Below, piece after piece: positions 8,767-19,947 of a stretch of DNA of 64,000 bases; within the stretch, counting starts at the first letter, position 1, and every line of letters starts with the position of its first letter. The position numbers and the translations under genes are program-made. Source of the DNA: Polyangiales bacterium (GTDB lineage Bacteria > Myxococcota_A > Polyangia > Polyangiales > Ga0077539); the NCBI GenBank assembly GCA_041389885.1, contig JAWKRB010000006.1, forward strand, positions 259,101 to 323,100. The letters are read 5' to 3'. Under the pieces are notes generated by a model that worked only from the letters and a program-made list of their open reading frames with translations, did not search any database and was not told the origin of the DNA.

Positions 8767-9516
8767 CTACACCTGGAGCATCGCGCGCAGCTTGCGCGAC
8801 GACTGACGCGACACCGCGAGGCGCGCGCCGGCCTGCGTGACCAGCACCGCGCGCCCGCCGGTCATGTCGTCGATGGCGGCGACGTGCTCGAGGTTCACCA
8901 GCAGCGCCCGGTGCGCCCGAAAGAAGCGCGCGGGGTCGAGGCGCGCCTCGAGGGCGGCGAGGGTGTAGTCGGTCGTGTGGCTGCCCCGGCTGGTGTGCAC
9001 CGTGACCAGCTCGTGCTCCACCACGCAGTGCGAGATCTCGCTCACGGGGATCAGCAGCACCCGCCCGCTCACGCCCACGGGGAGCTTGTCGGCGAGGGCG
9101 CGAGGCGTGGCGGAGCGCAGGGGCGCCAAGAGCTCCTCGGCCTGCGCGCGCATGCCCCGAGACTCGGCGCGCTCGACGGCGCGCACGAGGCGGCGCGTGT
9201 CGAAGGGCTTGAGCAGGTAGTCGATGGCGCCCGCGTCGAAGGCGTCGAGGGCGTAGCGGTCGTGCGCCGTGGTGAAGATGACGTAGGGCGCGGGCGAGGG
9301 GATGCGCGCGACGAGCCGGAGCCCGTCGTCGCCCGGCATCTGCACGTCGACGAAGGCCAGGTCGGGCGCGGCGCGCTCGATGAGCGCGAGCCCCGACTCG
9401 GCGTCGTCGGCCTCGCCCACCACCGTCACGCGCCCGGCGAGGGACTCGGCGATCAGCCGATGCAACCTCGCGCGCGCCGGCGCCTCGTCGTCGATGATCA
9501 CCGCCTTCGCGCTCAC
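8767..9516 (-). CDS. LytTR-family response regulator
   Basis: GTG start at 9516 with AGGAG 7 nt upstream. Receiver domain (IIDDE...DLAFVDVQMPGDDG...K) plus C-terminal LytTR DNA-binding domain. GTGA overlap with the upstream kinase. Confidence 0.8.
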   Translation of the reverse strand: MSAKAVIIDDEAPARARLHRLIAESLAGRVTVVGEADDAESGLALIERAAPDLAFVDVQMPGDDGLRLVARIPSPAPYVIFTTAHDRYALDAFDAGAIDYLLKPFDTRRLVRAVERAESRGMRAQAEELLAPLRSATPRALADKLPVGVSGRVLLIPVSEISHCVVEHELVTVHTSRGSHTTDYTLAALEARLDPARFFRAHRALLVNLEHVAAIDDMTGGRAVLVTQAGARLAVSRQSSRKLRAMLQV

Positions 9517-10598
9517 GTCGTGCTCCTGTCTGACCCGCCGAGCGGGCCGTGAATCGTCGCGGCGGTGGCGCCGCGGTCGGTCGCGATCTCGAAGCGCCCG
9601 GCCTCGCCCCAGGCGAGGGCCACGCGGCGCCGCACCAGGTCGACGCCGAGACCGCCCTCGCGGGGGCCGCGGTAGCCGCCGGGCGAGGTCACCGTGAGCA
9701 CGAGCTCGCCGTGCGCGGCCCGCGCCGAGACCCGCACGGGCCCGCGCGCGAGCTCGCCGTGGCGCACGGCGTTCTCGAGCAGCGGCTGCAGCAGCAGCGG
9801 GGGCACGAGCACTCCGCCCAGGGACTCGTCGGCGTCGGTCTCGACGCGCAGCTCGGGGAAGCGCGCCTGCAGCAGCGCGAGGTAGTCGGCGCAGAGGGCG
9901 AGCTCCTCGTCGAGGGGGTGCATCGCGCGGCGGCGCGTGTCGAGCACCGCCCGGAGCAGCGTCGCGAGCCGGCAGATGTTCTCCTCGGCGGCGCGCGCGT
10001 CGGTGGCGCACTGGCTCGCGATGGCGTTGAGCGCGTTGAAGAGAAAGTGGGGGTCGAGGTCGGCGCGGAGCGCGTCGCGCTGCGCCGCGGCGAGGGCGGC
10101 CTCGAGGCGCTCGCGAGACCCCTCGGCGCGGTCGTGCCGCTGCTCGAGCTGGATGTCGCGGGCCAGGCCCCATCCGCCGATGAGAAAGAGCAGCCACGCG
10201 ACGAGGAGCTCGCGGAGGTGCCCGAACACATAGACCCCCGACACCCGCGCCGCGGCCGCCGCGGTGCGGTAGAGCAGCACGAGCACGGCGAATTGCCCGG
10301 TCGCCACCGAGGCCGCGAGGAGCCAGGCGCGGAGCTTGCGCCCGCGGTCGCCGTCGGCCTCCAGGGGCACCAGCGCCCGCCAGGCGAGCGGGCCGATGAG
10401 CAGGGTGTAGAGCGACGAGAACGGGCCGAAGGCCGCGCCCAGCGGGTGCCCGGTGATGCTGTACTCCATCGCGCCGAAGCCCACGCCCAGGAGGAGCGTC
10501 GCGGGCAGGCGCCAGGAGCGCAGCGCCTCGCGCACGGTGTCTTCGACGAGGGGGCCGAGCTCGGAGGAGGCCGCGGGGTCGTCGGGCTCGGTGAGCAC
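9513..10598 (-). CDS. LytS/YehU-type sensor histidine kinase (His_kinase internal region)
   Basis: Five or six TM helices followed by the HFLFNALNAI His box and a HATPase-like C-terminus (LLLQPLLENAVRHG). Translationally coupled to the LytTR gene. Confidence 0.75.
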   Translation of the reverse strand: MLTEPDDPAASSELGPLVEDTVREALRSWRLPATLLLGVGFGAMEYSITGHPLGAAFGPFSSLYTLLIGPLAWRALVPLEADGDRGRKLRAWLLAASVATGQFAVLVLLYRTAAAAARVSGVYVFGHLRELLVAWLLFLIGGWGLARDIQLEQRHDRAEGSRERLEAALAAAQRDALRADLDPHFLFNALNAIASQCATDARAAEENICRLATLLRAVLDTRRRAMHPLDEELALCADYLALLQARFPELRVETDADESLGGVLVPPLLLQPLLENAVRHGELARGPVRVSARAAHGELVLTVTSPGGYRGPREGGLGVDLVRRRVALAWGEAGRFEIATDRGATAATIHGPLGGSDRSTT

Positions 10599-10675
10599 GG
10601 GGAGACTCTAATCCCCGCCGCGGCCGCGCGACGAGCGCCCTCGGGCGTCAGCGGCTCGCGGGGCGGGGCGAGCGG

Positions 10676-11101
10676 TCAATTCAGCTGGCTGGGGCGCGGG
10701 CCCTCGTCGGGGGGGAGCAGCTCGTCGGCCACGGGGGACGACTGGTGCAGCACGAGGCGCCACGCGCCGTCTTCGCGCACGAAGGCGTTGGTCGCGACGA
10801 AGACGCCGCGCTGGTTCTCCGAGGGGAGGGTCACGTGCTCCATGCAGATCACGTAGGCGACGTCGCCCAGGAGCGAGACCCTCGGCGACTCGCAGGAGAC
10901 CTCGGGCGAGCTCGGGTTCGCGAGGATCTCCAGCCACGAGCGCATCACGGCGTCTCGACCGACGATCGGACCCCAGCCCGGATGAATGCACGCCACGGGC
11001 GCGGTGCGGGACCACAGCCCGTCCATCGCGCCAAGGTCGCGTCGCTCGAAGGCGAGGTAGAAGCCCTCGTTGGAGCGCAGCACCTCGCCCTCGTCGAGCA
11101 T
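10676..11101 (-). CDS. SnoaL-like / NTF2-fold (DUF4440-like) protein
   Basis: 141-aa ORF. FYLAFERRDLGAMDGLWS...HPGWGPIVGRDAVMRSW is typical of the NTF2-like superfamily. TGATG overlap with the upstream DctP gene. Confidence 0.55.
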   Translation of the reverse strand: MLDEGEVLRSNEGFYLAFERRDLGAMDGLWSRTAPVACIHPGWGPIVGRDAVMRSWLEILANPSSPEVSCESPRVSLLGDVAYVICMEHVTLPSENQRGVFVATNAFVREDGAWRLVLHQSSPVADELLPPDEGPRPSQLN

Positions 11102-12093
11102 CAGCGGGACCGGCCCGCGTTGCGCACCCGGGTCATCCACGCCTCGTCGGAGACGGTGCCGATGAGCCGGCGGCGGGCGCGGTCGAAGAGGCCGTTCCAC
11201 TGGGTGCGCTCGGCGGGGGTGTACTGCACGAGCTGCACCCCGCGGCGGGTGAGCGAGGTGATCGCGTTGCGGTCGTCGCGGTCGACGTTGCGCTGAATGA
11301 GCCCGTTGAACTGCTGGATGACCTCGCGCAGGAGCGTCTGCTGCTCCGCGGGGAGGCCCTGGTAGGCGCGGTTCGAGAGCACGATGCCGCCGACGGAGTA
11401 GCTGTTGGCGCCCTCGGTCATGTGGGTCATGCGCGAAGCCCACTGGAGCGCGACCGCGGCGTAGGGCGGCGCGACGAGCGCGTTGATGCGGTTCGTCTGC
11501 AGCGCGCCGAGCACCTCGGGGAGCGCCAGGGGAACCCCGGTGGCGCCCGCCTCGCGGTAGAACGCCGGGAGGATCACGTCGTCGCGCCAGAGCCAGGGGT
11601 GCGCGCCGGCGAGGTCGCTCGGCGTGCGGATCGGCATGGTCGAGAAGAGCCGGGGCATTCCGCCGACGGCCCAGGAGATCAGCGAGAAGCCGTGAGACGA
11701 GAACTGCTGCTGCACCTCGGTGTCGAGGCTCGCCCTGGCGCGCTCGACCGAGGCCTGGCTGTCGAACATGCCCGGGAGCATGAAGGCCAGCACCGGGCGG
11801 TGGATGTTCCCGAGGCCGATGCCCGTGGCGACCACGCCGTCGAGGCGCCCGGCGCGCACCTTGCGGATCATCTCCGACTCGTCGCCCTGGATGCCGCCCG
11901 CGTAGAAGCGGATCGAGAGCTGCTGGTTCGAGCGGCGCCGGAGCTCGCGGTTCGCAGACTCGAGCCCGCGGATCCAGGTGGAGCCCGCCGGGGCGAGGGT
12001 GCCGATGGAGATCGTTCGCTGCGCCTGCGCCGCGCCGCCGAGCAGCGTGAGGCCAGAGACGAGCGCGAGCAGAGCCTTCGAGGGTGAGCGCAT
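11101..12093 (-). CDS. TRAP transporter solute-binding protein, DctP family (orphan; no DctQ/M adjacent)
   Basis: Signal peptide, then a DctP-like fold signature (RFYAGGIQGDESEMIRKVRAGRLDG...). No membrane-component genes nearby. Confidence 0.6.
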   Translation of the reverse strand: MRSPSKALLALVSGLTLLGGAAQAQRTISIGTLAPAGSTWIRGLESANRELRRRSNQQLSIRFYAGGIQGDESEMIRKVRAGRLDGVVATGIGLGNIHRPVLAFMLPGMFDSQASVERARASLDTEVQQQFSSHGFSLISWAVGGMPRLFSTMPIRTPSDLAGAHPWLWRDDVILPAFYREAGATGVPLALPEVLGALQTNRINALVAPPYAAVALQWASRMTHMTEGANSYSVGGIVLSNRAYQGLPAEQQTLLREVIQQFNGLIQRNVDRDDRNAITSLTRRGVQLVQYTPAERTQWNGLFDRARRRLIGTVSDEAWMTRVRNAGRSR

Positions 12094-12230
12094 GGGACGA
12101 GATCCTTCCTATGATCGTGCCGCGGGCGCAAGGGGCTCGGCCGCGCGTAGGCAGCTGGACGGCCCCGGGGCCCCTCGCATTCATCCCGCGCGTGCGGGCG
12201 GACGGGGTGTCGCGCTACGCTACGCGGCGG

Positions 12231-13496
12231 ATGTCGCCCCCAGAGAACAAGCCCGACGCGGTCGACCCCGACGACGCCGCGCAGAGCCTCGACGAGGTCG
12301 AGGAGCTGCTCAAGCGCATCCCAGGCGCCAAGAGCCTGCTCAAGGAGCTGAAGGAGCTCCGCGCCCTGCTCATCGACCGCCGCGCCCCGCGGGTGGCGTG
12401 CGTGGGCCGTCGCGGCGCGGGGAAGTCCTCGCTCGCGAACGCGCTGCTGGGCGAGGCCGTGCTCGCCGTCGGCCCCGTGGCCGACACCACGACGAAGCCC
12501 GGGTGGGTCGATCTGCGCGTGGCGCAGCGCTCGATGCGGTGGTTCGACACGCCGGGTCTAGGCGTGGGCGACGCCGAGGCGCGACGGCGAGAGGTGGCCC
12601 AGGCGCTTCGCCGCGAGCGCCCCGACGTGCTGATCTTTCTGTGCCGCGCGACGGAGGTCGACGCGGGCATCGACGACGACCTCGACGACCTGATCGAGGT
12701 GCGCCGCGCCACCACCGACGCGCGCGGCGCGCAGGTGCCCCTGGTCGCGGCGGTGACCAAGGTCGACGAGCTCGCGCCGCAGCACCTGCGCGCGCCGCCC
12801 TACGACGCCGACCCCGCCAAGCACGAGAACGTCGACGCCGCGGCCCGGCGGCTGCGAGAGCACCTCGAGCGAAAGGGCCTCGGGCAGGTCAAGGTCGTGC
12901 CCGTCGCGACCTACATGCGCTGGGAGGGCGACGCCCTCGAGGTCGACTGGCGCTGGAACCTCCCGGCCCTCGCCTCGGCGATCTTCTCGAAGCTCCCTGA
13001 GCCCGCGCAGGTCGAGGCCGCCCGCGCGTTCGTCGAGGCGAAGGCGCTGCGTCGGCGCGTCGCCATGCGCTTCGTGGGCACCGCCACCAGCGTCGCGGTG
13101 ATCGTCGGCGCGACGCCGCTGCCCTTCGCGGACGTCACGATCCTGCTGCCGCTGCAGTCGTTCATGCTCACGGCCATCGCCTACTCGTCGGGGCGCCCCG
13201 TCGGCCCGCGCGCGGTGAGCGCCTGGCTCGGCAGCCTCGGGCTCAACGTCGGCGCCGCGCTGGGGATGCGCGAGCTCGTGCGGGCGGTGTTGAAGGTGAT
13301 CCCCGGCGTGGGCGGGGCGCTCTCAGGCGCGGTGGCGGGCACCGGCACCTGGGCCCTCGGCGTCGCCGCGGTGCGCTTCTTCGTCGACGGCCAGACCGCG
13401 GCGCAGTCGCGCCAGGCCTTCGACGAGGCGCTGCGCGAAGGCCCAGACGAAGTCCCTGCGCCGCAGGGAGATCCGCCCGACGAAGGCGGGTCTTGA
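12231..13496 (+). CDS. Era/MMR_HSR1-like P-loop GTPase with C-terminal DUF697-like membrane domain
   Basis: G1 GRRGAGKSS, G2 DTTT, G3 DTPG, G4 TKVD. C-terminal hydrophobic helices (VGTATSVAVIVGATPLPFADVTILLPLQSFMLTAIAY...). ATG at 12231 chosen because it is divergent from the DctP gene. Confidence 0.65.
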   Translation: MSPPENKPDAVDPDDAAQSLDEVEELLKRIPGAKSLLKELKELRALLIDRRAPRVACVGRRGAGKSSLANALLGEAVLAVGPVADTTTKPGWVDLRVAQRSMRWFDTPGLGVGDAEARRREVAQALRRERPDVLIFLCRATEVDAGIDDDLDDLIEVRRATTDARGAQVPLVAAVTKVDELAPQHLRAPPYDADPAKHENVDAAARRLREHLERKGLGQVKVVPVATYMRWEGDALEVDWRWNLPALASAIFSKLPEPAQVEAARAFVEAKALRRRVAMRFVGTATSVAVIVGATPLPFADVTILLPLQSFMLTAIAYSSGRPVGPRAVSAWLGSLGLNVGAALGMRELVRAVLKVIPGVGGALSGAVAGTGTWALGVAAVRFFVDGQTAAQSRQAFDEALREGPDEVPAPQGDPPDEGGS

Positions 13497-14464
13497 GCGC
13501 GTGCCGCGAGGGCGTTCTCGGGGCCCTCGACGAGGTCGAGTCTCAGCTGGGCGAGCTGCCTGAGCTCGCGCGGGCGCGGGTCCGAGCGCGGGCGGGCGGC
13601 GCGGCGGCGCTGGCGGTGCTGGGGCGGCGGGGCGTGGGCAAGAGCAGCCTGCTCAACGCCCTCTCGCCCCGGGAGGTCGCGGCGGTGGGGCACGTCGTCG
13701 ACACCACGCGCGCCGCGAGCGCCCACGAGATCGACGGCGTGCGGGGCCTCCTCTGGGTCGACGGGCCGGGCCTCCGCGGCGCCCTCGAGGCGGTCTCGCC
13801 CGAGGCGGCGCTGGCCCCCTGGGACCCCTTCGCGACCCTCGTGGTGGTCGGGGCGACGGAGGTCGAGACGGGCCGCGAGGACCTGCGCCGCGCCGCGGCG
13901 TACCTCCACGCGCGGCCGAAGCGCCTGCGGCGCTGCGTGATCGTCGTGAACCGGGTCGACGAGCTCGACCCCGTCGACGACTACGCGCCGCCCTTTCGAA
14001 GCCCGAGGAAGGGGATCCACATCGCCGAGGCCTGCGCCCGCGCGCGCCGCGCGCTCGCGCGGGAGGGCGTCGACGCGGTCGAGGTGGTGCCGGTGAGCTC
14101 GGTGCTGGTGCGCGAGGGCGACGCGGTGACCTTCGACGGTCGCTGGAACCTCGAGGCGCTGCGCGCGGTGCTCCGCTCGCTGGCCGACGCCGACGCGGCG
14201 GCGCAGGGCGGCAGGGCGTTGGGGCGAGAGCTCGCGTCGATCGCGCTCCGTTACGCGGAGAGCCGGCGCGAGCTCTCGACGACGCCGACGGCGCCCGAGC
14301 GCGCGCTGGTGTGCGCGCTGTTGGGCGAGGAGCCCGCGCCGGGGGCCCTCGCGCGTCGGGTCTTCGGGGAGCGAGGGGCGTGGGTGCGGGCGGTCGCGAG
14401 CGCCGCGCGACGCGCGGGCGTCGACGCGCTCAGGCAGAGGGGCGTTCAGCGGGCGGGCGCGTAG
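13493..14464 (+). CDS. Paralogous Era-like P-loop GTPase without membrane domain
   Basis: G1 GRRGVGKSS, G3 DGPG, G4 NRVD. Shares the conserved segment VVPV...REGDA..DGRWNLEALRA with the upstream GTPase. TTG/GTG start overlaps the upstream stop. Confidence 0.6.
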   Translation: MSACREGVLGALDEVESQLGELPELARARVRARAGGAAALAVLGRRGVGKSSLLNALSPREVAAVGHVVDTTRAASAHEIDGVRGLLWVDGPGLRGALEAVSPEAALAPWDPFATLVVVGATEVETGREDLRRAAAYLHARPKRLRRCVIVVNRVDELDPVDDYAPPFRSPRKGIHIAEACARARRALAREGVDAVEVVPVSSVLVREGDAVTFDGRWNLEALRAVLRSLADADAAAQGGRALGRELASIALRYAESRRELSTTPTAPERALVCALLGEEPAPGALARRVFGERGAWVRAVASAARRAGVDALRQRGVQRAGA

Positions 14465-15399: not shown

Positions 15400-18300
15400 T
15401 CAGCGGAGCGTGCCGTATCCGAGGATGCGAGACGCGTAGCGCGTGGCGTCGATCAGCCCGACGTAGTTGTGAAAGCGGGTGACCGCCTCGGCGTTGCGCT
15501 GCAGGTCGCGGTTGGCCGGCACCGGCTCGCGGGTGGTCGGGTCGAGCACCACGCGGTAGCTCCCGTCGGGGTTCTGCACCGGCCGACCGGAGAGGTCGAG
15601 CTCCACCTGGTAGGTGTCGCGCATGAGCAGGTTGGCGTGCGCGAGCATGCGCGAGGCGATGCCGCGGTCGGTCTCGACGCCGTCGACGCGGTCGGCCTCG
15701 AAGCGCCGCGCGACGTACACCACGCCGGTCTCGGGGTTGCGAAAGCGCACCCGCTCCTCCTCAGGCACGTCGACGGCCTCGGCGCCGCCCTCGGTCCAGA
15801 TGCGGAGCTTCTGGATCGTGGTGAGGTCCGAGTTGAGGGAGGAGAAGAGCATCGAGTAGACGACCGTCGGGAGCTCCTGGCGGTACCCGATGTTCGGGAA
15901 GAGAACGCGCGAGCCCGAGGGGCGCAGCGGCTCGCCGAAGGGGTCGCTGCGGGTCGGGGTGGTCCAGAGCGGCATGAGCTCGGGGGTGAGCGCGGTGAGG
16001 TTGCCCTCGCCGTCGATGCGCGGCGCCGTGGGCACGTGCATCGCCACCGCGTCCCAGTCCTCGGAGAGGATCCCGCCGAGGAGGCGGTCGTAGGCGCGCG
16101 GCATGTCGTTTCGGAAGTTCAGCTGGAACTCCCGGCCGTCGAGGAAGAGCGAGCGCGAGATGCTCGAGAAGGTCGGCCTCGTGTCGGTCAGCATGATCGC
16201 CGCGAGCGGCTTCTCGGGGTACGAGCCCGCGCGGCGCACGTACGAGTGGTAGTCCCACGAGCCGCCGATGGTGTTGTCGTACTCCTCGCCGATGAAGCGA
16301 CCGTCGCCGATGCTGATCTCAAACTGCGGCTCGTCGCCGGCGTTGTCGGGCACGTCGAAGAGAGGGCGGGTCTCCATCGGGAGCGGGCGGTTCGTCACCA
16401 GCTCGTAGTTGCCCGGCTCGGGTCGGAGCATCACGCCCGCGAAGAAGTCGAAGATCGCCGGGCCCGCCATGAGGTACGGGCGGAGCCAGTTGTCGTCGCG
16501 CGTGAGCCGCTCGTAGAGCCCCGACGAGAAGGCTTGCGAGTAGTACGCCGTGTCGCGGGCGACCGACCAGTGGTAGCCCCGCAGGCGGCGGAAGATCGTG
16601 CGCGCGAGGTAGTACGGGATGTTCATCCGGCCGAACTCGCGCTGGCCGCGGCGGAAGTACATCGACGCGTACGTCAGGTTGTACTTCTGGATCATCGACT
16701 GGGTGACCTCGTACGGGTCGGCCCCCTGGTCGAAGTAGTTGATGTGGGGGTAGCCCGTGGCGATGTCCCACCCCACGCGGTAGCCCCAGCGGAGCACCCC
16801 GCCGCCGGTGCGCGCGTCGCTGCGGGTGCGCCACATCGGGGCCACGCGGTCGGAGGTCGTGCTCGTGGGCGAGCTCTCGAAGTCGGTCATCGCCGCGTGG
16901 TCGCGGGGCGCGAACGAGCAGAGCTGGCCGTCGACGATGCGCCAGCGGTACCGAGCCTTCTCCTGCTCCGTCGCCGGGCGGCAGCGGCCGGGGTCGAACA
17001 CGCGCAGCTGCCGCGCGAGCTCGGTGTAGTGGATCGGGAGCACGCCGGTCTCGTTGAGCACCGGGTCGGTCCACTCGATCTGGTCGAGCTCAGAGAGCTG
17101 CGAGCGGAGCCTCGGCGCGAAGCGCTGCTGGTCCTCCGGCGCGAAGCCCCCGCGGGCGGTGTCGGGCTCCATGGTCTCGATGACGCGGCCGTAGAGCAGC
17201 CCCATCGCGTACACGTCGTACGAGCCGAGCCCCACGGTCTCGCCGAAGCGCTCCCACTGGTACTCCATCGTCGACGTGTTGCCGAAGTAGTTGATGCCCG
17301 CGTGGGGCGCGCTGCCCTCGGCGACGCCCTGCTCCTCGTCGCTGGGCGGGTCGATGTAGCGCGGGCCCATGCAGTTGTCGGCGTTGCGGTCCGCGTTGCG
17401 AATCGGGTTGCAGCTGTTCTGCGTGCAGCTCGGCAGGCAGGTCGAGGCGGCGGCGTTGTTGCGCGTGCGGAGCTGCCAGTACTGCGGGTTGTAGTTCATC
17501 GAGTCGTAGCTCGACGGGGGCATGTGGTAGAGCCCGAGCGAGTGGCCGATCTCGTGGAGCTGAATGCCCTTGTAGGCTTCGGTCAGCAGGTCGTCGTAGA
17601 TGCGCCGGGCGCGCTCCTCTCGGCTGAGCGTGCCGTAGCGCTGCTGAAACCACCGCGCGACGCCGCGCATGTCCTGGCTGCCCACGACCGCCGGTGCGCC
17701 GACGTCCTGGAAGCAGAAGCCGTGCCCCTCGAGGCGCTGCTGGAGCTGGTTGCGGGTGAGCTCCGCGGTGTCAGGGTCCATGCGGCGCAGGGGCGAGACC
17801 TGGTCGAGAAAGCTCGCTGACCGAGCCGCCGAGGGGTCGAAGCCGAGGTTCGAGAGCCAGTGCTCGTCGATCATGTCGGCCTCGATCGAGGTGTTCTGCA
17901 GCTGCGACGCGAGGGCGCGAAACTGCTGCGCGGAGCGGGTCGAGTCGGCCGACACGGGGCGCGCGGAGGCGAGGGCGCGGTCGTGGTTCTCCAGCGCCTG
18001 GCTCGCGTCTCGCGCCGCCGGCGCGCGAACGCCGGTGCTGGACGACAGGTTCGCGAGGTCGATGGCGCGGGCGCGCGCGCCCATCTCGGCGGGGGAGAGG
18101 GCGGGCGCGGCGGCCGCCGCGGGGTTGCGGAGGTTGCGCGCGAAGTTCTGCGCCGCGGCGCCTTCGACGTACTCGCTGACGTCGAGGTCGCCGATCATCA
18201 TCAGCACGTAGTCGCGCTGCTGCGCCGCCGCGAACTCCGCGGAGCGGCCCACGGTGAGCCCGCCGTTGGAGACCACCTCGCCGGTCAGGGGGTCGTAGCC

Positions 18301-19947
18301 CCAGTGGGTGATGCCGCCGAAGGGGGCGCGCGTGCGGCCGTTGACGTAGGTGATGTGGTTGTAGCGAATGTCGCCGAGGCGCGCGCGGTACCCGTCCTCG
18401 CGGCACGCGGGCTTCGGGTCGCTCGGGAGCACCGGGTTGTGACAGAGCACCACCGCCGGGCCGTTCGAGGCCTTCGGCCGCGGGCCGAGAAACGCGCCCA
18501 TCTCCTGCGCCTGCTCGCCCGAGTCGTAGAACTGCGCGTGGCAGGCGTCGCGCTCGCCCCCGGTGCGTCGGCACTCGACCTCTCGCGCGTCGGCGACGGC
18601 GCGCATGATGGCGACGTTCCAGGTGTCGATGATCTCTTCGGAGGGGCCGCGCACGATCGCGCTCGCCGCGTCTGCGGGCGTGACGAGCCTCCGCGCGCCG
18701 CCCTCGACCACGTGGTTCTGGAACTGCGCGGGCATGTCGGGGTTGACGTAGTACGCGATGGGGCGGACGCGGCGCTGACGGTAGGGCAGCGTGCACTTGT
18801 TCATCACCGTGTCGCACTGCGAGCCCGAGACCTGCTCGGCGGTGAAGCCCATGGTCATCGCGGCCTCGCACTGGTCGGCGGTGCCGTTGTTGTTCGCGTC
18901 GGCGTTCTCGGTGCACGACACGAACTGCGGCGGGGCCGTGCCCACGCGGCGCTGCAGGTGCGACTGCTCCCAGATGTTATGGATCATCTGGTAGCGATGA
19001 AAGTTCGAGTCGGTGGTGCCGTAGCCCGGGTCGTAGCCGTTGCGGTCGGCGCGCGGTCCGCCCACGAGGTCGTAGGGCGCGCGGGTCATCTCGAGCGGCT
19101 GAAAGTCACGGTCGACCACGCGGCGAAACGACGTGCGGATGGTCGTCTCTTGCTCGTTGCATGAGTAGACCGGGCCGTTGGCGAAGAAGTTGGCGATGAG
19201 GCAGGTGGGGAGGGGCTCGCCGAAGATGCGCGAGTTCTCCGGGCGCACCAGCCAGCGCGAGGTGATGTCGAAGTAGCCCGAGCTGAGCTCGGAGAGGTTG
19301 TTCGCGTCGGGGCTGCGGGGGTTCTCCTCGGTCCACGCCACGGGGGAGAACGAGAGGTCGCCGAAGACCGAGCCGTACCAGACCCACGCCCAGTCGGGGT
19401 TGGTCACCAGGTTGCGGGACCAGTCGACCCGGATGTACTCGCGGTCGTACCAGCGCCGGTCCGAGACGTTCTCCTCGACGATGTTGAGCTGCTCGCCCGT
19501 CGTCGGGTTGTACGACCGGCGGATGTCGAACTGGCTCTCGATGCGGTACGCGGCGACGATCATCCCGCGGTCGGTGCGCTGCGAGACGCGGGTGGAGCCG
19601 CTGTTCTCCTGCACGAACTCGTAGCTCTTGCGGGCCACGAGGAGGTTCTCTTGAATCTCCCAACGGATGCGGTCGACGTCGTCCCAGGTGCCGACGGGCA
19701 TCAGGGTCTGGTCGCTCGACCCTCCGACCACGTAGTTGTTCACGTAGAACTCGGGGTCGTCGTCGGTGTCGGTGTAGTTCTCACCGACGAAGAAGCGCTT
19801 GGGGAGCGCAGACTCCTGCACGCGGCTGATGGGATCGCGCTCCTGCGCGCAGTCCACTCCGCCGACGGCCAACGCGGCCAGCGCGAGCAGCGGCAGCGCG
19901 CGACGACCCGACGCCACGCGCCCGGGCCTCGACCTACGAGACGACAT
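15400..19947 (-). CDS. Very large (1515 aa) secreted Cys-rich zincin-like protein (HExxH metalloprotease motif)
   Basis: Signal peptide ALPLLALAALAVGG. LHEIGHSLGLYH zinc-binding motif. Many Cys pairs. Continuous GC3-biased frame; antisense ORFs judged artefactual. Confidence 0.6.
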   Translation of the reverse strand: MSSRRSRPGRVASGRRALPLLALAALAVGGVDCAQERDPISRVQESALPKRFFVGENYTDTDDDPEFYVNNYVVGGSSDQTLMPVGTWDDVDRIRWEIQENLLVARKSYEFVQENSGSTRVSQRTDRGMIVAAYRIESQFDIRRSYNPTTGEQLNIVEENVSDRRWYDREYIRVDWSRNLVTNPDWAWVWYGSVFGDLSFSPVAWTEENPRSPDANNLSELSSGYFDITSRWLVRPENSRIFGEPLPTCLIANFFANGPVYSCNEQETTIRTSFRRVVDRDFQPLEMTRAPYDLVGGPRADRNGYDPGYGTTDSNFHRYQMIHNIWEQSHLQRRVGTAPPQFVSCTENADANNNGTADQCEAAMTMGFTAEQVSGSQCDTVMNKCTLPYRQRRVRPIAYYVNPDMPAQFQNHVVEGGARRLVTPADAASAIVRGPSEEIIDTWNVAIMRAVADAREVECRRTGGERDACHAQFYDSGEQAQEMGAFLGPRPKASNGPAVVLCHNPVLPSDPKPACREDGYRARLGDIRYNHITYVNGRTRAPFGGITHWGYDPLTGEVVSNGGLTVGRSAEFAAAQQRDYVLMMIGDLDVSEYVEGAAAQNFARNLRNPAAAAAPALSPAEMGARARAIDLANLSSSTGVRAPAARDASQALENHDRALASARPVSADSTRSAQQFRALASQLQNTSIEADMIDEHWLSNLGFDPSAARSASFLDQVSPLRRMDPDTAELTRNQLQQRLEGHGFCFQDVGAPAVVGSQDMRGVARWFQQRYGTLSREERARRIYDDLLTEAYKGIQLHEIGHSLGLYHMPPSSYDSMNYNPQYWQLRTRNNAAASTCLPSCTQNSCNPIRNADRNADNCMGPRYIDPPSDEEQGVAEGSAPHAGINYFGNTSTMEYQWERFGETVGLGSYDVYAMGLLYGRVIETMEPDTARGGFAPEDQQRFAPRLRSQLSELDQIEWTDPVLNETGVLPIHYTELARQLRVFDPGRCRPATEQEKARYRWRIVDGQLCSFAPRDHAAMTDFESSPTSTTSDRVAPMWRTRSDARTGGGVLRWGYRVGWDIATGYPHINYFDQGADPYEVTQSMIQKYNLTYASMYFRRGQREFGRMNIPYYLARTIFRRLRGYHWSVARDTAYYSQAFSSGLYERLTRDDNWLRPYLMAGPAIFDFFAGVMLRPEPGNYELVTNRPLPMETRPLFDVPDNAGDEPQFEISIGDGRFIGEEYDNTIGGSWDYHSYVRRAGSYPEKPLAAIMLTDTRPTFSSISRSLFLDGREFQLNFRNDMPRAYDRLLGGILSEDWDAVAMHVPTAPRIDGEGNLTALTPELMPLWTTPTRSDPFGEPLRPSGSRVLFPNIGYRQELPTVVYSMLFSSLNSDLTTIQKLRIWTEGGAEAVDVPEEERVRFRNPETGVVYVARRFEADRVDGVETDRGIASRMLAHANLLMRDTYQVELDLSGRPVQNPDGSYRVVLDPTTREPVPANRDLQRNAEAVTRFHNYVGLIDATRYASRILGYGTLR

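What the first reader, a model, noticed from the sequence alone, without database searches (positions are those of the whole stretch)
12231..14464. Tandem pair of paralogous small Era-like GTPases, one with a DUF697-like membrane anchor
Both ORFs carry complete G1-G4 motifs (GRRGAGKSS/GRRGVGKSS, DTPG/DGPG, TKVD/NRVD). They share a conserved post-GTPase segment (VVPV..REGDA..DGRWNLEAL). They are translationally coupled. Only the first has C-terminal transmembrane helices. Paired GTPase systems in bacteria often form heterodimeric membrane-remodelling or localisation switches. This pair sits next to an orphan TRAP binding protein and a LytS/LytTR system, and has no characterised function that I can recognise.
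Basis: partly seen in the sequence, partly recalled or inferred. Interest (0 to 1): 0.65.

Follow-up and report, generated by a model that had tools for sequence, protein, structure and literature searches.

The report
Membrane GTPase with soluble paralogue partner
Two overlapping genes in a myxobacterial genome encode a membrane-anchored GTP-binding protein from a widespread but unstudied family, plus a soluble duplicate of it found only in this lineage; the duplicate probably pairs with and regulates the membrane protein, and what the pair does is unknown.

Summary
ORF1 (12231-13496, 421 aa) and ORF2 (13493-14464, 323 aa) are real, overlapping (TTGA) paralogous GTPase genes. They share 36% identity (E 1e-19) and both have intact G1-G4 motifs. 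ORF1 belongs to a broad, uncharacterised family found in Bacillota, Acidobacteriota, Chloroflexi, Bacteroidota and Myxococcota. The family has an N-terminal helix pair, a G domain distantly related to E. coli YfjP/YeeP, and a C-terminal DUF697 membrane domain. About 435 clusters at 50% identity match at E<=1e-30. Outside one Polyangiales-type Myxococcota clade the gene is solitary. In all 21 loci of that clade that have downstream sequence, a membrane-less paralogue follows directly. The partners form one clade whose branching largely mirrors ORF1's, which points to a single old tandem duplication. ORF1 orthologues keep every catalytic motif. Several partner lineages have lost the P-loop lysine, the G3 aspartate or switch I. 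That asymmetry is what a homodimer turned heterodimer with a regulatory subunit would show. The nearest solved structures are dimerisation-activated membrane GTPases (Toc34, IRG, GIMAP, LeoA, IniA, mitofusin), matched at G-domain level only. My best reading is a GTP-gated heterodimer at the inner membrane. The interaction and the output are inferred, not shown. Interest is moderate.

The parts
12231..13496 (+). ORF1: membrane GTPase, 421 aa (two N-terminal helices + YfjP-like G domain + DUF697 membrane domain)
   Evidence: ORF and start. Pfam MMR_HSR1 56.7 bits. 73 homologues. AF2 model pLDDT 87.9, pTM 0.86.
12390..12986 (+). ORF1 G domain (residues 54-252). G1 GRRGAGKSS 12405-12431; G2 DTT 12483-12491; G3 DTPG 12546-12557 followed by Leu (a hydrophobic residue at the Ras Gln61 position); G4 TKVD 12756-12767; family motif DWRWN 12945-12959 in a post-G5 beta-hairpin.
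   Evidence: Motifs and invariant columns. Secondary structure.
13047..13421 (+). ORF1 DUF697-type membrane domain (residues 273-397). Hydrophobic helices at about 276-294, 300-319 and 361-385.
   Evidence: Pfam DUF697 E 1.2e-4, below cut-off. 16 of 27 family members match. Hydropathy. Helices in the AF2 model. No solved structural relative.
13493..13496 (+). TTGA overlap of the ORF2 start (TTG) with the ORF1 stop (TGA); probable translational coupling.
   Evidence: Sequence. In the related loci, gene calls and longest-ORF starts also overlap.
13493..14464 (+). ORF2: soluble paralogue, 323 aa. G1 GRRGVGKSS 13622-13648; G2 DTT 13700-13708; G3 DGPG 13760-13771; G4 NRVD 13949-13960; DGRWN 14135-14149; C-terminal helical domain of residues 233-316 at 14189-14440.
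   Evidence: AF2 model pLDDT 89.9, pTM 0.88. No hydrophobic segment.
12094..12230 (.). 137-bp divergent intergenic region between the DctP gene and ORF1; presumed promoter region.
   Evidence: Coordinates. No sigma-70 consensus found.
11101..12093 (-). Orphan DctP-type TRAP solute-binding protein, divergently transcribed. A semi-conserved neighbour, not shown to be part of the system.
   Evidence: Pfam DctP 114.9 bits. Same divergent position in 9 distinct loci at 61-67% identity. No DctQ/M gene beside it in the window or in L003.

Best explanation
ORF1 is an orthologue of a widespread, uncharacterised inner-membrane GTPase. It has two N-terminal helices, a YfjP/YeeP-like Era-class G domain with Leu at the Ras Gln61 position, and a C-terminal DUF697 membrane domain. 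In an ancestor of one Polyangiales-type Myxococcota clade this gene duplicated in tandem, and the downstream copy (ORF2) lost the membrane domain.

I propose that the ancestral protein cycles through GTP-dependent G-domain homodimers, as its nearest structural relatives do. In this clade the homodimer would have been replaced by a heterodimer. ORF1 is the membrane-bound catalytic subunit. ORF2 is a cytosolic subunit recruited to it in the GTP state, which sets ORF1's hydrolysis rate.

Shown: paralogy, gene coupling, clade-wide conservation, largely parallel divergence of the two copies, and asymmetric motif decay. Inferred: the physical heterodimer, which subunit hydrolyses GTP, and any effect on the membrane through DUF697.
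For: Paralogy and intact motifs. The genes overlap in the window and in related loci.

In every locus of the paired clade that has downstream sequence (21 distinct loci), the paralogue follows directly. In all loci from other phyla, and in the one solitary-type Myxococcota locus with downstream sequence (L084), the GTPase-DUF697 gene stands alone with non-conserved neighbours.

In the NJ tree the partners form one clade and the paired ORF1 orthologues another, with largely matching internal groupings. Partners share the Myxococcota-specific DTPGLRAG and T[KR]VDEL states rather than the solitary DTRGLG and TQVDEL states. This indicates a single duplication inside the lineage.

ORF1 orthologues keep G1-G4 everywhere. 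Partners do not: the P-loop reads GRS instead of GKS and G3 has Asp changed to Glu in L003, L013 and L016. Switch I is lost in the L007/8/11/44 group and in P0085-88. So the partner's own catalysis is dispensable while the gene is retained.

The best solved-structure matches are GTPases that work by nucleotide-dependent G-domain dimerisation on membranes: Toc33/34, Irga6, GIMAP7, LeoA, IniA and Mfn1/2. Literature notes that Toc34/Toc159 and AIG1/GIMAP use R-fingers, and that a Chlamydomonas septin homodimerises through its G interface (10.1101/2024.03.25.586683).

Against: The window's own ORF2 has fully intact motifs and could act as an independent GTPase. The DUF697 match is below Pfam's cut-off in this protein, and hhalign against E. 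coli YcjF found nothing. No conserved third gene gives a functional clue. The NJ tree is midpoint-rooted and has no bootstrap support.
Confidence: 0.5

Rival explanations
1. A minimal dynamin- or mitofusin-like membrane-remodelling pair. The two GTPases would tether, fuse or cut inner membrane through GTP-driven G-domain dimerisation and helical-bundle movement, like DynA, IniA/IniC, LeoBC or mitofusin.
Against: The Dynamin_N match covers only profile positions 1-33 of 168, the P-loop. The proteins are 323-421 aa and have no stalk or paddle. TM-scores are 0.3-0.45 with rmsd above 9 Å on the long alignments. Most of the family is solitary.
Confidence: 0.15
2. The two paralogues are independent GTPases that stay adjacent only because of the duplication. 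There is no heterodimer, and ORF2 has acquired a separate cytosolic role.
For: The window's ORF2 has intact G1-G4. Its C-terminal helical domain has no detectable similarity to ORF1's. ORF2 evolves faster: about 30-38% identity against about 57% for ORF1 at similar depth.
Against: The genes have stayed adjacent, with overlapping longest-ORF or called starts, in 21 loci across deep divergence. Tree groupings largely match. Catalytically dead partners are still retained next to ORF1.
Confidence: 0.15
3. Ribosome- or RNA-associated Era-class GTPases. ORF1 would be a membrane-tethered assembly or translation factor and ORF2 its cytosolic counterpart.
For: The best sequence matches in PDB and NCBIfam are Der/EngA, Era, MnmE and YsxC. 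An RluA-type pseudouridine synthase gene lies near the solitary family member in 13 of 89 loci from several lineages.
Against: Scores are far below every equivalog cut-off, for example 40 against 306.7 bits. There is no KH or other RNA-binding domain. No RluA gene lies beside the paired version. Neighbours are variable.
Confidence: 0.1
4. A mobile-element or anti-phage module: a YeeP/YfjP-type prophage GTPase or an Eleos/Leo dynamin-like defence system.
For: The G domain is distantly related to E. coli YfjP of cryptic prophage CP4-57. There are weak PADLOC LeoA/LeoBC hits.
Against: Flanking synteny is conserved across divergent genomes (DctP, FGE-sulfatase, a 1515-aa protein). No integrase or phage gene was seen in the flanks examined. 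GC content is even across the region. The PADLOC hits cover the G domain only.
Confidence: 0.03

Closest known systems
Solitary 'GTPase family protein / DUF697 family' proteins (for example Peribacillus P0090, 415 aa; also Thermoanaerobaculia, Chloroflexi, Bacteroidota)
   Same: Full-length collinear homologues of ORF1 at 31-41% identity. Same N-terminal helices, GRRGxGKSS P-loop, PP[FY]...K and RWN motifs, and DUF697 domain.
   Different: They are solitary genes with no downstream paralogue. G3 reads DTRGL and G4 reads TQVD, against DTPGL and T[KR]VD here. They are also uncharacterised.
E. coli YfjP / YeeP / YkfA cryptic-prophage GTPases
   Same: The G domain, N-terminal helix and post-G5 W-x-L...LP segment align (hhalign 98.2% with the ORF1 family, 96.7% with the ORF2 family). 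YfjP is soluble and about 287 aa, the same overall architecture as ORF2.
   Different: Only 21-26% identity. YfjP has no RR in the P-loop and no PP[FY] motif in the hhalign alignments. It has no DUF697 partner and sits in a prophage. Its function is unknown.
Toc33/34-Toc159 chloroplast import GTPases, and AIG1/GIMAP
   Same: Toc34 is the best Foldseek hit for ORF1 (E 2.5e-6, 20-24% identity). AIG1 Pfam hits occur in 26 of 27 family members. From my own knowledge, these form a membrane-anchored GTPase paired with a paralogue through G-domain dimers.
   Different: TM-score is only 0.34/0.54. The AIG1 score is below cut-off (20.1 against 27). The membrane domain is DUF697, not a single tail anchor. 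No translocon genes are nearby.
E. coli YcjX-YcjF (DUF463 P-loop GTPase plus DUF697 membrane protein)
   Same: A DUF697 membrane protein coupled to a P-loop GTPase, as overlapping genes in E. coli and as a fusion here. ycjXF is sigma-32-linked and often lies near psp genes (PMC3041696).
   Different: hhalign finds no significant similarity of the ORF1 family to E. coli YcjF (probability 0.1%) or to YcjX (6.7%). The GTPase is of a different family.
Bacterial dynamin-like proteins (LeoA/LeoBC, IniA, DynA)
   Same: G-domain fold similarity and flanking helices. From my own knowledge, these often occur as paralogue pairs acting on membranes.
   Different: No stalk or paddle, half the length, and the Dynamin_N match is limited to the P-loop.

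Membership tests
P-loop GTPase, Pfam MMR_HSR1 (TRAFAC Era/EngA/TrmE/septin-like class) | Score above Pfam's gathering cut-off, with G1 GxxxxGK[ST], G3 DxxG and G4 [NT]KxD present | tested here: met
   56.7 and 37.6 bits against 21.9. Motifs present in both ORFs.
DUF697 (PF05128) | Score above Pfam's gathering cut-off (27.7 bits) in the protein itself | tested here: not met
   ORF1 scores 22.3 bits, E 1.2e-4, over residues 273-397.
DUF697 (PF05128) | Family-level support: homologues match the model, and there is collinear homology to proteins that carry the domain | tested here: met
   16 of 27 homologues match, best E 1.5e-6. Bacillota homologues with precomputed PF05128 align over the whole C-terminal domain.
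GTPase Era / Der (EngA) | Equivalog score above the NCBIfam cut-off; a KH domain (Era) or two tandem G domains (Der) | tested here: not met
   Era 35.1 bits against 237. Der 40 bits against 306.7. Matches cover the G domain only.
YfjP/YeeP/YkfA-like GTPases | Profile similarity across the G domain and its flanking family-specific segments | tested here: met
   hhalign 98.2% (E 3.5e-14, 210 columns) and 96.7% (E 3.3e-10) against E. coli YfjP. The relationship is distant, at 21-26% identity.
YfjP/YeeP/YkfA-like GTPases | Prophage or mobile-island context | tested here: not met
   Conserved chromosomal synteny and no phage genes in the flanks examined.
Bacterial dynamin-like proteins / Eleos (LeoA, LeoBC) | Full Dynamin_N G domain plus a helical stalk, in proteins of 550 aa or more | tested here: not met
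   Dynamin_N is matched only at positions 1-33 of 168. The proteins are 421 and 323 aa. The LeoA and LeoBC PADLOC hits cover the G domain only.
Toc34 / AIG1 / GIMAP (paraseptin group) | AIG1 Pfam score above cut-off; close G-domain fold | tested here: inconclusive
   AIG1 20.1 bits against 27, but 26 of 27 family members hit. Toc34 is the top Foldseek hit with TM 0.34/0.54.
DO-GTPase conflict systems (Kaur et al. 2020, PMC7159879) | Glutamate in Walker B, a GAP1 partner gene, and often N-terminal zinc ribbons | tested here: not met
   Walker B/G3 has Asp (DTPG, DGPG). There is no Cys-rich N-terminus. The operon holds only the two GTPases, flanked by the DctP and FGE-sulfatase genes.
YcjX-YcjF module | Detectable homology of the membrane domain to YcjF and of the NTPase to YcjX | tested here: not met
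   hhalign probability 0.1% against YcjF and 6.7% against YcjX. Each E. coli template was a single sequence, so sensitivity was low.
Heterodimeric GTPase pair (functional class) | Physical, nucleotide-dependent interaction of the two G domains | not testable with these tools
   No heteromer structure prediction is available. Only evolutionary indicators could be gathered.

The most novel reading that the evidence does not exclude
The pair is a minimal bacterial counterpart of eukaryotic membrane-anchored, dimerisation-activated GTPases of the Toc33/159, GIMAP or mitofusin type. A membrane-integrated GTPase and a soluble paralogue, catalytically dead in some lineages, would form an asymmetric GTP-gated heterodimer. 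That heterodimer would drive a conformational change in the DUF697 domain to remodel, tether or gate the inner membrane. The conserved, divergently encoded orphan TRAP binding protein could be a periplasmic input. This would give the first function for DUF697 and a natural series of steps from GTPase to pseudo-GTPase.
Probability: 0.15. Interest if true: 0.7.

Novelty: new variant of a known kind. Interest (0 to 1): 0.4.

Why it matters
The fused GTPase-DUF697 family occurs in many phyla (about 435 clusters at 50% identity with E<=1e-30). In the literature I could search, neither it nor its nearest named relatives (YfjP/YeeP, YcjF) has a known function.

The myxobacterial pair works as a natural experiment. 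One lineage split the protein's role between a membrane subunit and a soluble subunit, and the soluble one shows successive loss of catalytic residues. This gives a concrete, testable hypothesis for how the whole family works: G-domain dimerisation at the membrane. It also offers a set of natural variants for studying how pseudo-GTPases arise.

It is not a new kind of system, and nothing here points to a specific cellular process.

Tried and rejected
- **Source contig.** The look-up of encoding contigs for the window's own ORF2 (P0074) found no record. ORF1's exact sequence was not among the protein hits; the best was 79% identical.
- **Literature.** A DUF697 search gave only incidental mentions. 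YcjX/YcjF papers give stress-regulon context but no mechanism. A YeeP/YfjP/YkfA search found no functional study.
- **Membrane-domain homology.** hhalign of the ORF1 family against E. coli YcjF and YcjX was not significant. The C-terminal domains of ORF1 and its partners were compared alone, to test whether the partner's tail is a degenerate DUF697. Probability was below 1%, so this is rejected or undetectable.
- **DO-GTPase systems** were considered and rejected.
- **Defence system** was considered. There were only weak G-domain hits to Leo proteins.
- **Promoter and terminator scan.** No sigma-70 consensus was found. The four weak terminator-like hits lie inside coding sequence or are unconvincing.
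- **Third component.** A search for a conserved third gene by clustering all neighbour ORFs across 20 loci found only clade-local synteny.
Full report

Yes. The window is about 73% GC. ORF1 runs 12231-13496 on the + strand (ATG, 421 aa). ORF2 runs 13493-14464 (TTG, 323 aa). The ORF2 start codon overlaps the ORF1 stop codon in the sequence TTGA, and a GAAGG stretch lies 6 nt upstream. NCBI's deposited protein for ORF2 (P0074, 'MAG: GTPase [Polyangiales bacterium]', on a 356-kb contig) is identical in sequence and length, so the TTG start is also the annotators' choice. ORF1's start at 12231 agrees with the N-termini of 26 homologues. The longer upstream extension would run into the divergent DctP gene.

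GC3 is 0.94 for ORF1 and 0.96 for ORF2, against 0.76 for the long antisense shadow ORF. Both proteins pass Pfam MMR_HSR1 (56.7 and 37.6 bits, cut-off 21.9). They are 36% identical over 253 residues (E 1e-19). Only ORF1 has hydrophobic segments, at residues 277-317 and 352-385. No further paralogue lies in the window.

**2. What family is ORF1?**

The DUF697 match in ORF1 itself is sub-threshold (22.3 against 27.7 bits). Three other results support it. Sixteen of 27 homologues match the model, best E 1.5e-6. JGI annotates several homologues as 'predicted GTPase/uncharacterized protein (DUF697 family)'. A scan of one genome per species found 240 relatives. These include full-length collinear homologues at 31-41% identity in Bacillota (Peribacillus, Lederbergia, Virgibacillus and others), Thermoanaerobaculia and other Acidobacteriota, Chloroflexi, Bacteroidota, Ignavibacteriota and Gaiellales. 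The Peribacillus proteins carry PF01926+PF05128 and are named only 'GTPase family protein'.

A profile search of 1.84 billion cluster representatives found 435 with E<=1e-30. So ORF1 belongs to a real, moderately large, cross-phylum family with no functional annotation. The literature search on DUF697 returned only incidental mentions.

**3. What kind of G domain is it?**

NCBIfam equivalogs for Era, Der, MnmE, HydF, YlqF and YsxC match the G domain only, at a tenth of their cut-offs. These are therefore not orthologues of any ribosome-biogenesis GTPase. Profile comparison with E. coli YfjP, the cryptic-prophage CP4-57 GTPase that is a paralogue of YeeP and YkfA, is significant for both families. 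It gives 98.2% (E 3.5e-14, 210 columns, 26% identity) for the ORF1 family and 96.7% (E 3.3e-10) for the ORF2 family. The alignments include the N-terminal helix and the post-G5 'W-x-L ... LP' segment. The G domain is thus a distant member of the YfjP/YeeP-like branch of Era-class GTPases. That branch has no functional study in the searchable literature.

Several family signatures are shared by ORF1, ORF2 and the solitary proteins:
- a GRRGxGKSS P-loop, with both arginines invariant or nearly so;
- Leu directly after DxxG, a hydrophobic residue at the Ras Gln61 position;
- a PP[FY]...K segment after G4;
- a D-x-R-W-N motif in a beta-hairpin after G5 (hairpin seen in the models).

**4. Structure.**

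AlphaFold2 gave confident models. ORF1 scored pLDDT 87.9 and pTM 0.86; ORF2 scored pLDDT 89.9 and pTM 0.88. Both begin with two helices, followed by the G domain and the extra hairpin. ORF2 ends in four helices (residues 233-316). ORF1 ends in seven helices (257-403), and three of these coincide with the hydrophobic segments.

**5. The pair is lineage-specific and old.**

tblastn of both proteins against all fetched loci separated two situations:
- In every locus of one Myxococcota clade that has downstream sequence, a second G-domain paralogue starts at or within the end of the GTPase-DUF697 gene. These are 21 distinct loci: the window, L001, L003-L005, L007-L013, L016-L021, L040, L044 and L086. 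By gene calls or longest-ORF starts the genes overlap by 4-62 nt.
- In all loci from other phyla, and in the solitary-type Polyangiaceae locus L084, there is no second copy within ±8 kb. Neighbours differ from locus to locus. The other solitary-type Myxococcota locus, L066, ends about 330 bp after the gene and is uninformative.

A neighbour-joining tree of G domains gives three clades: the partners, the paired ORF1 orthologues, and the solitary proteins. The internal groupings of the partner clade largely mirror those of the ORF1 clade. Partners share the Myxococcota-specific states DTPGLRAG, T[KR]VDEL and DTT rather than the solitary states DTRGLG, TQVDEL and x-T-G. The simplest history is one tandem duplication within this lineage, loss of the membrane domain from the downstream copy, and co-inheritance since then. 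The tree is NJ, midpoint-rooted and has no bootstrap, so this history is likely rather than proven.

**6. Asymmetric decay.**

ORF1 orthologues keep G1-G4 without exception. Partners do not:
- L003_B has GRSGSGRST and EIPG. L013_B has GRARSGRST and ELPG. L016_B has GRRGSGRSV and EPAG. In each, the P-loop Lys is replaced by Arg and the G3 Asp by Glu.
- The L007/8/11/44 partners lack the switch I threonine region, and their G4 reads H-R-[IV]-D.
- Four close relatives of the window's ORF2 (P0085-P0088) have a 6-residue deletion that removes switch I.

The window's own ORF2 is intact. Partner length varies from 257 to 396 aa. Partner C-terminal helices show no detectable similarity to DUF697. A gene that stays glued to ORF1 while repeatedly losing catalytic residues is the usual signature of a regulatory or structural subunit of a heteromer.

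One small oddity: the window's ORF1 lacks the near-invariant Arg after G3 (DTPGLGVG against DTPGLRAG), while ORF2 keeps it (DGPGLRGA). I cannot interpret this.

**7. Neighbourhood.**

Only part of it is conserved. The divergent orphan DctP gene recurs in 9 distinct loci at 61-67% identity, across several sub-clades. The FGE-sulfatase-like gene plus a protein of about 1515 aa recur downstream in 6. The LytS/LytTR genes occur only in the window. Other sub-clades have a HYDIN/ASH Ig-like protein, or a 185-aa protein plus an alcohol dehydrogenase, upstream instead. Only the two GTPases are universal. Nothing suggests a mobile element or defence island. PADLOC gave only weak G-domain hits to LeoA and LeoBC.

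**8. Mechanism (inference).**

I think the ancestral solitary protein works through GTP-dependent G-domain dimers at the inner membrane. This would resemble the Toc, GIMAP, IRG and dynamin-type proteins it most resembles. Literature notes R-fingers in Toc34/Toc159 and AIG1/GIMAP and G-interface homodimerisation of a Chlamydomonas septin. In this clade the homodimer would have become an ORF1:ORF2 heterodimer, in which ORF1 hydrolyses GTP and ORF2 tunes the cycle. The invariant P-loop arginines are candidates for a cis or trans catalytic role, by analogy with hGBP1 and atlastin (my own knowledge, untested).

What the DUF697 domain then does is unknown. The only hint is that E. coli ycjF overlaps the P-loop GTPase gene ycjX in a sigma-32-linked unit often found near psp genes. 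However, I found no significant direct similarity to YcjF. I put 0.5 on the heterodimer model. The rivals are dynamin-like remodelling (0.15), independent paralogues (0.15), a ribosome-linked function (0.1) and mobile or defence origin (0.03).

**9. Verdict.**

The finding is real and carefully described. It is a lineage-specific two-gene variant of a known-but-uncharacterised family, so I rate it a new variant of a known kind. It is moderately interesting. It gives a testable handle on an unstudied cross-phylum membrane GTPase family and a natural series of GTPase-to-pseudo-GTPase steps. It is not a new type of system, and no cellular role can be assigned yet.

Noticed in passing
L047 4895-5581, L060 6975-7922 (-), L084 3361-4266 (-), and 10 further loci: An RluA-type pseudouridine synthase gene lies within ±8 kb of the solitary GTPase-DUF697 gene in 13 of 89 loci. 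These come from several separate lineages: Thermoanaerobaculia, other Acidobacteriota, two Bacillota groups and a Polyangiaceae MAG. It is not found next to the paired version. This could hint at an RNA or ribosome link, or it could be chance; no statistics were done.
   Followed up: partly
window 15400-19947 (-): A 1515-aa protein with no Pfam match carries HEIGHSLGLYH, the metzincin HExxHxxGxxH zinc-binding consensus. In 6 loci it lies next to the FGE-sulfatase-like gene; in L003 a PHP-domain gene also lies between the GTPase pair and that gene. It may be an uncharacterised giant metalloprotease.
   Followed up: partly
window 11101-12093 (-): A DctP-type TRAP solute-binding protein with a signal peptide but no DctQ/DctM gene beside it. 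It is conserved divergently upstream of the GTPase pair in 9 distinct loci at 61-67% identity, higher than the GTPase itself.
   Followed up: partly
window 14446-14464: The 3' end of ORF2 overlaps the 3' end of the convergent FGE-sulfatase-like gene by 19 nt.
   Followed up: no
L017 7371-7928, also L018-L021 and L086 4060-4605: In one sub-clade a conserved protein of about 185 aa with no Pfam match sits directly upstream of the GTPase pair on the same strand. It could be a clade-specific third component.
   Followed up: no
window 12546-12566 (ORF1 residues 106-112): The window's ORF1 has Gly where more than 90% of orthologues have Arg, right after G3 (DTPGLGVG against DTPGLRAG). Its partner ORF2 keeps the Arg. 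This is unexplained.
   Followed up: no
window 8767-11050 (-): A LytS-type histidine kinase, a Response_reg+LytTR regulator and a SnoaL_3 protein lie upstream of DctP. The kinase and regulator occur only in this window, and the SnoaL gene also occurs in L013. They are not linked to the GTPase pair.
   Followed up: yes
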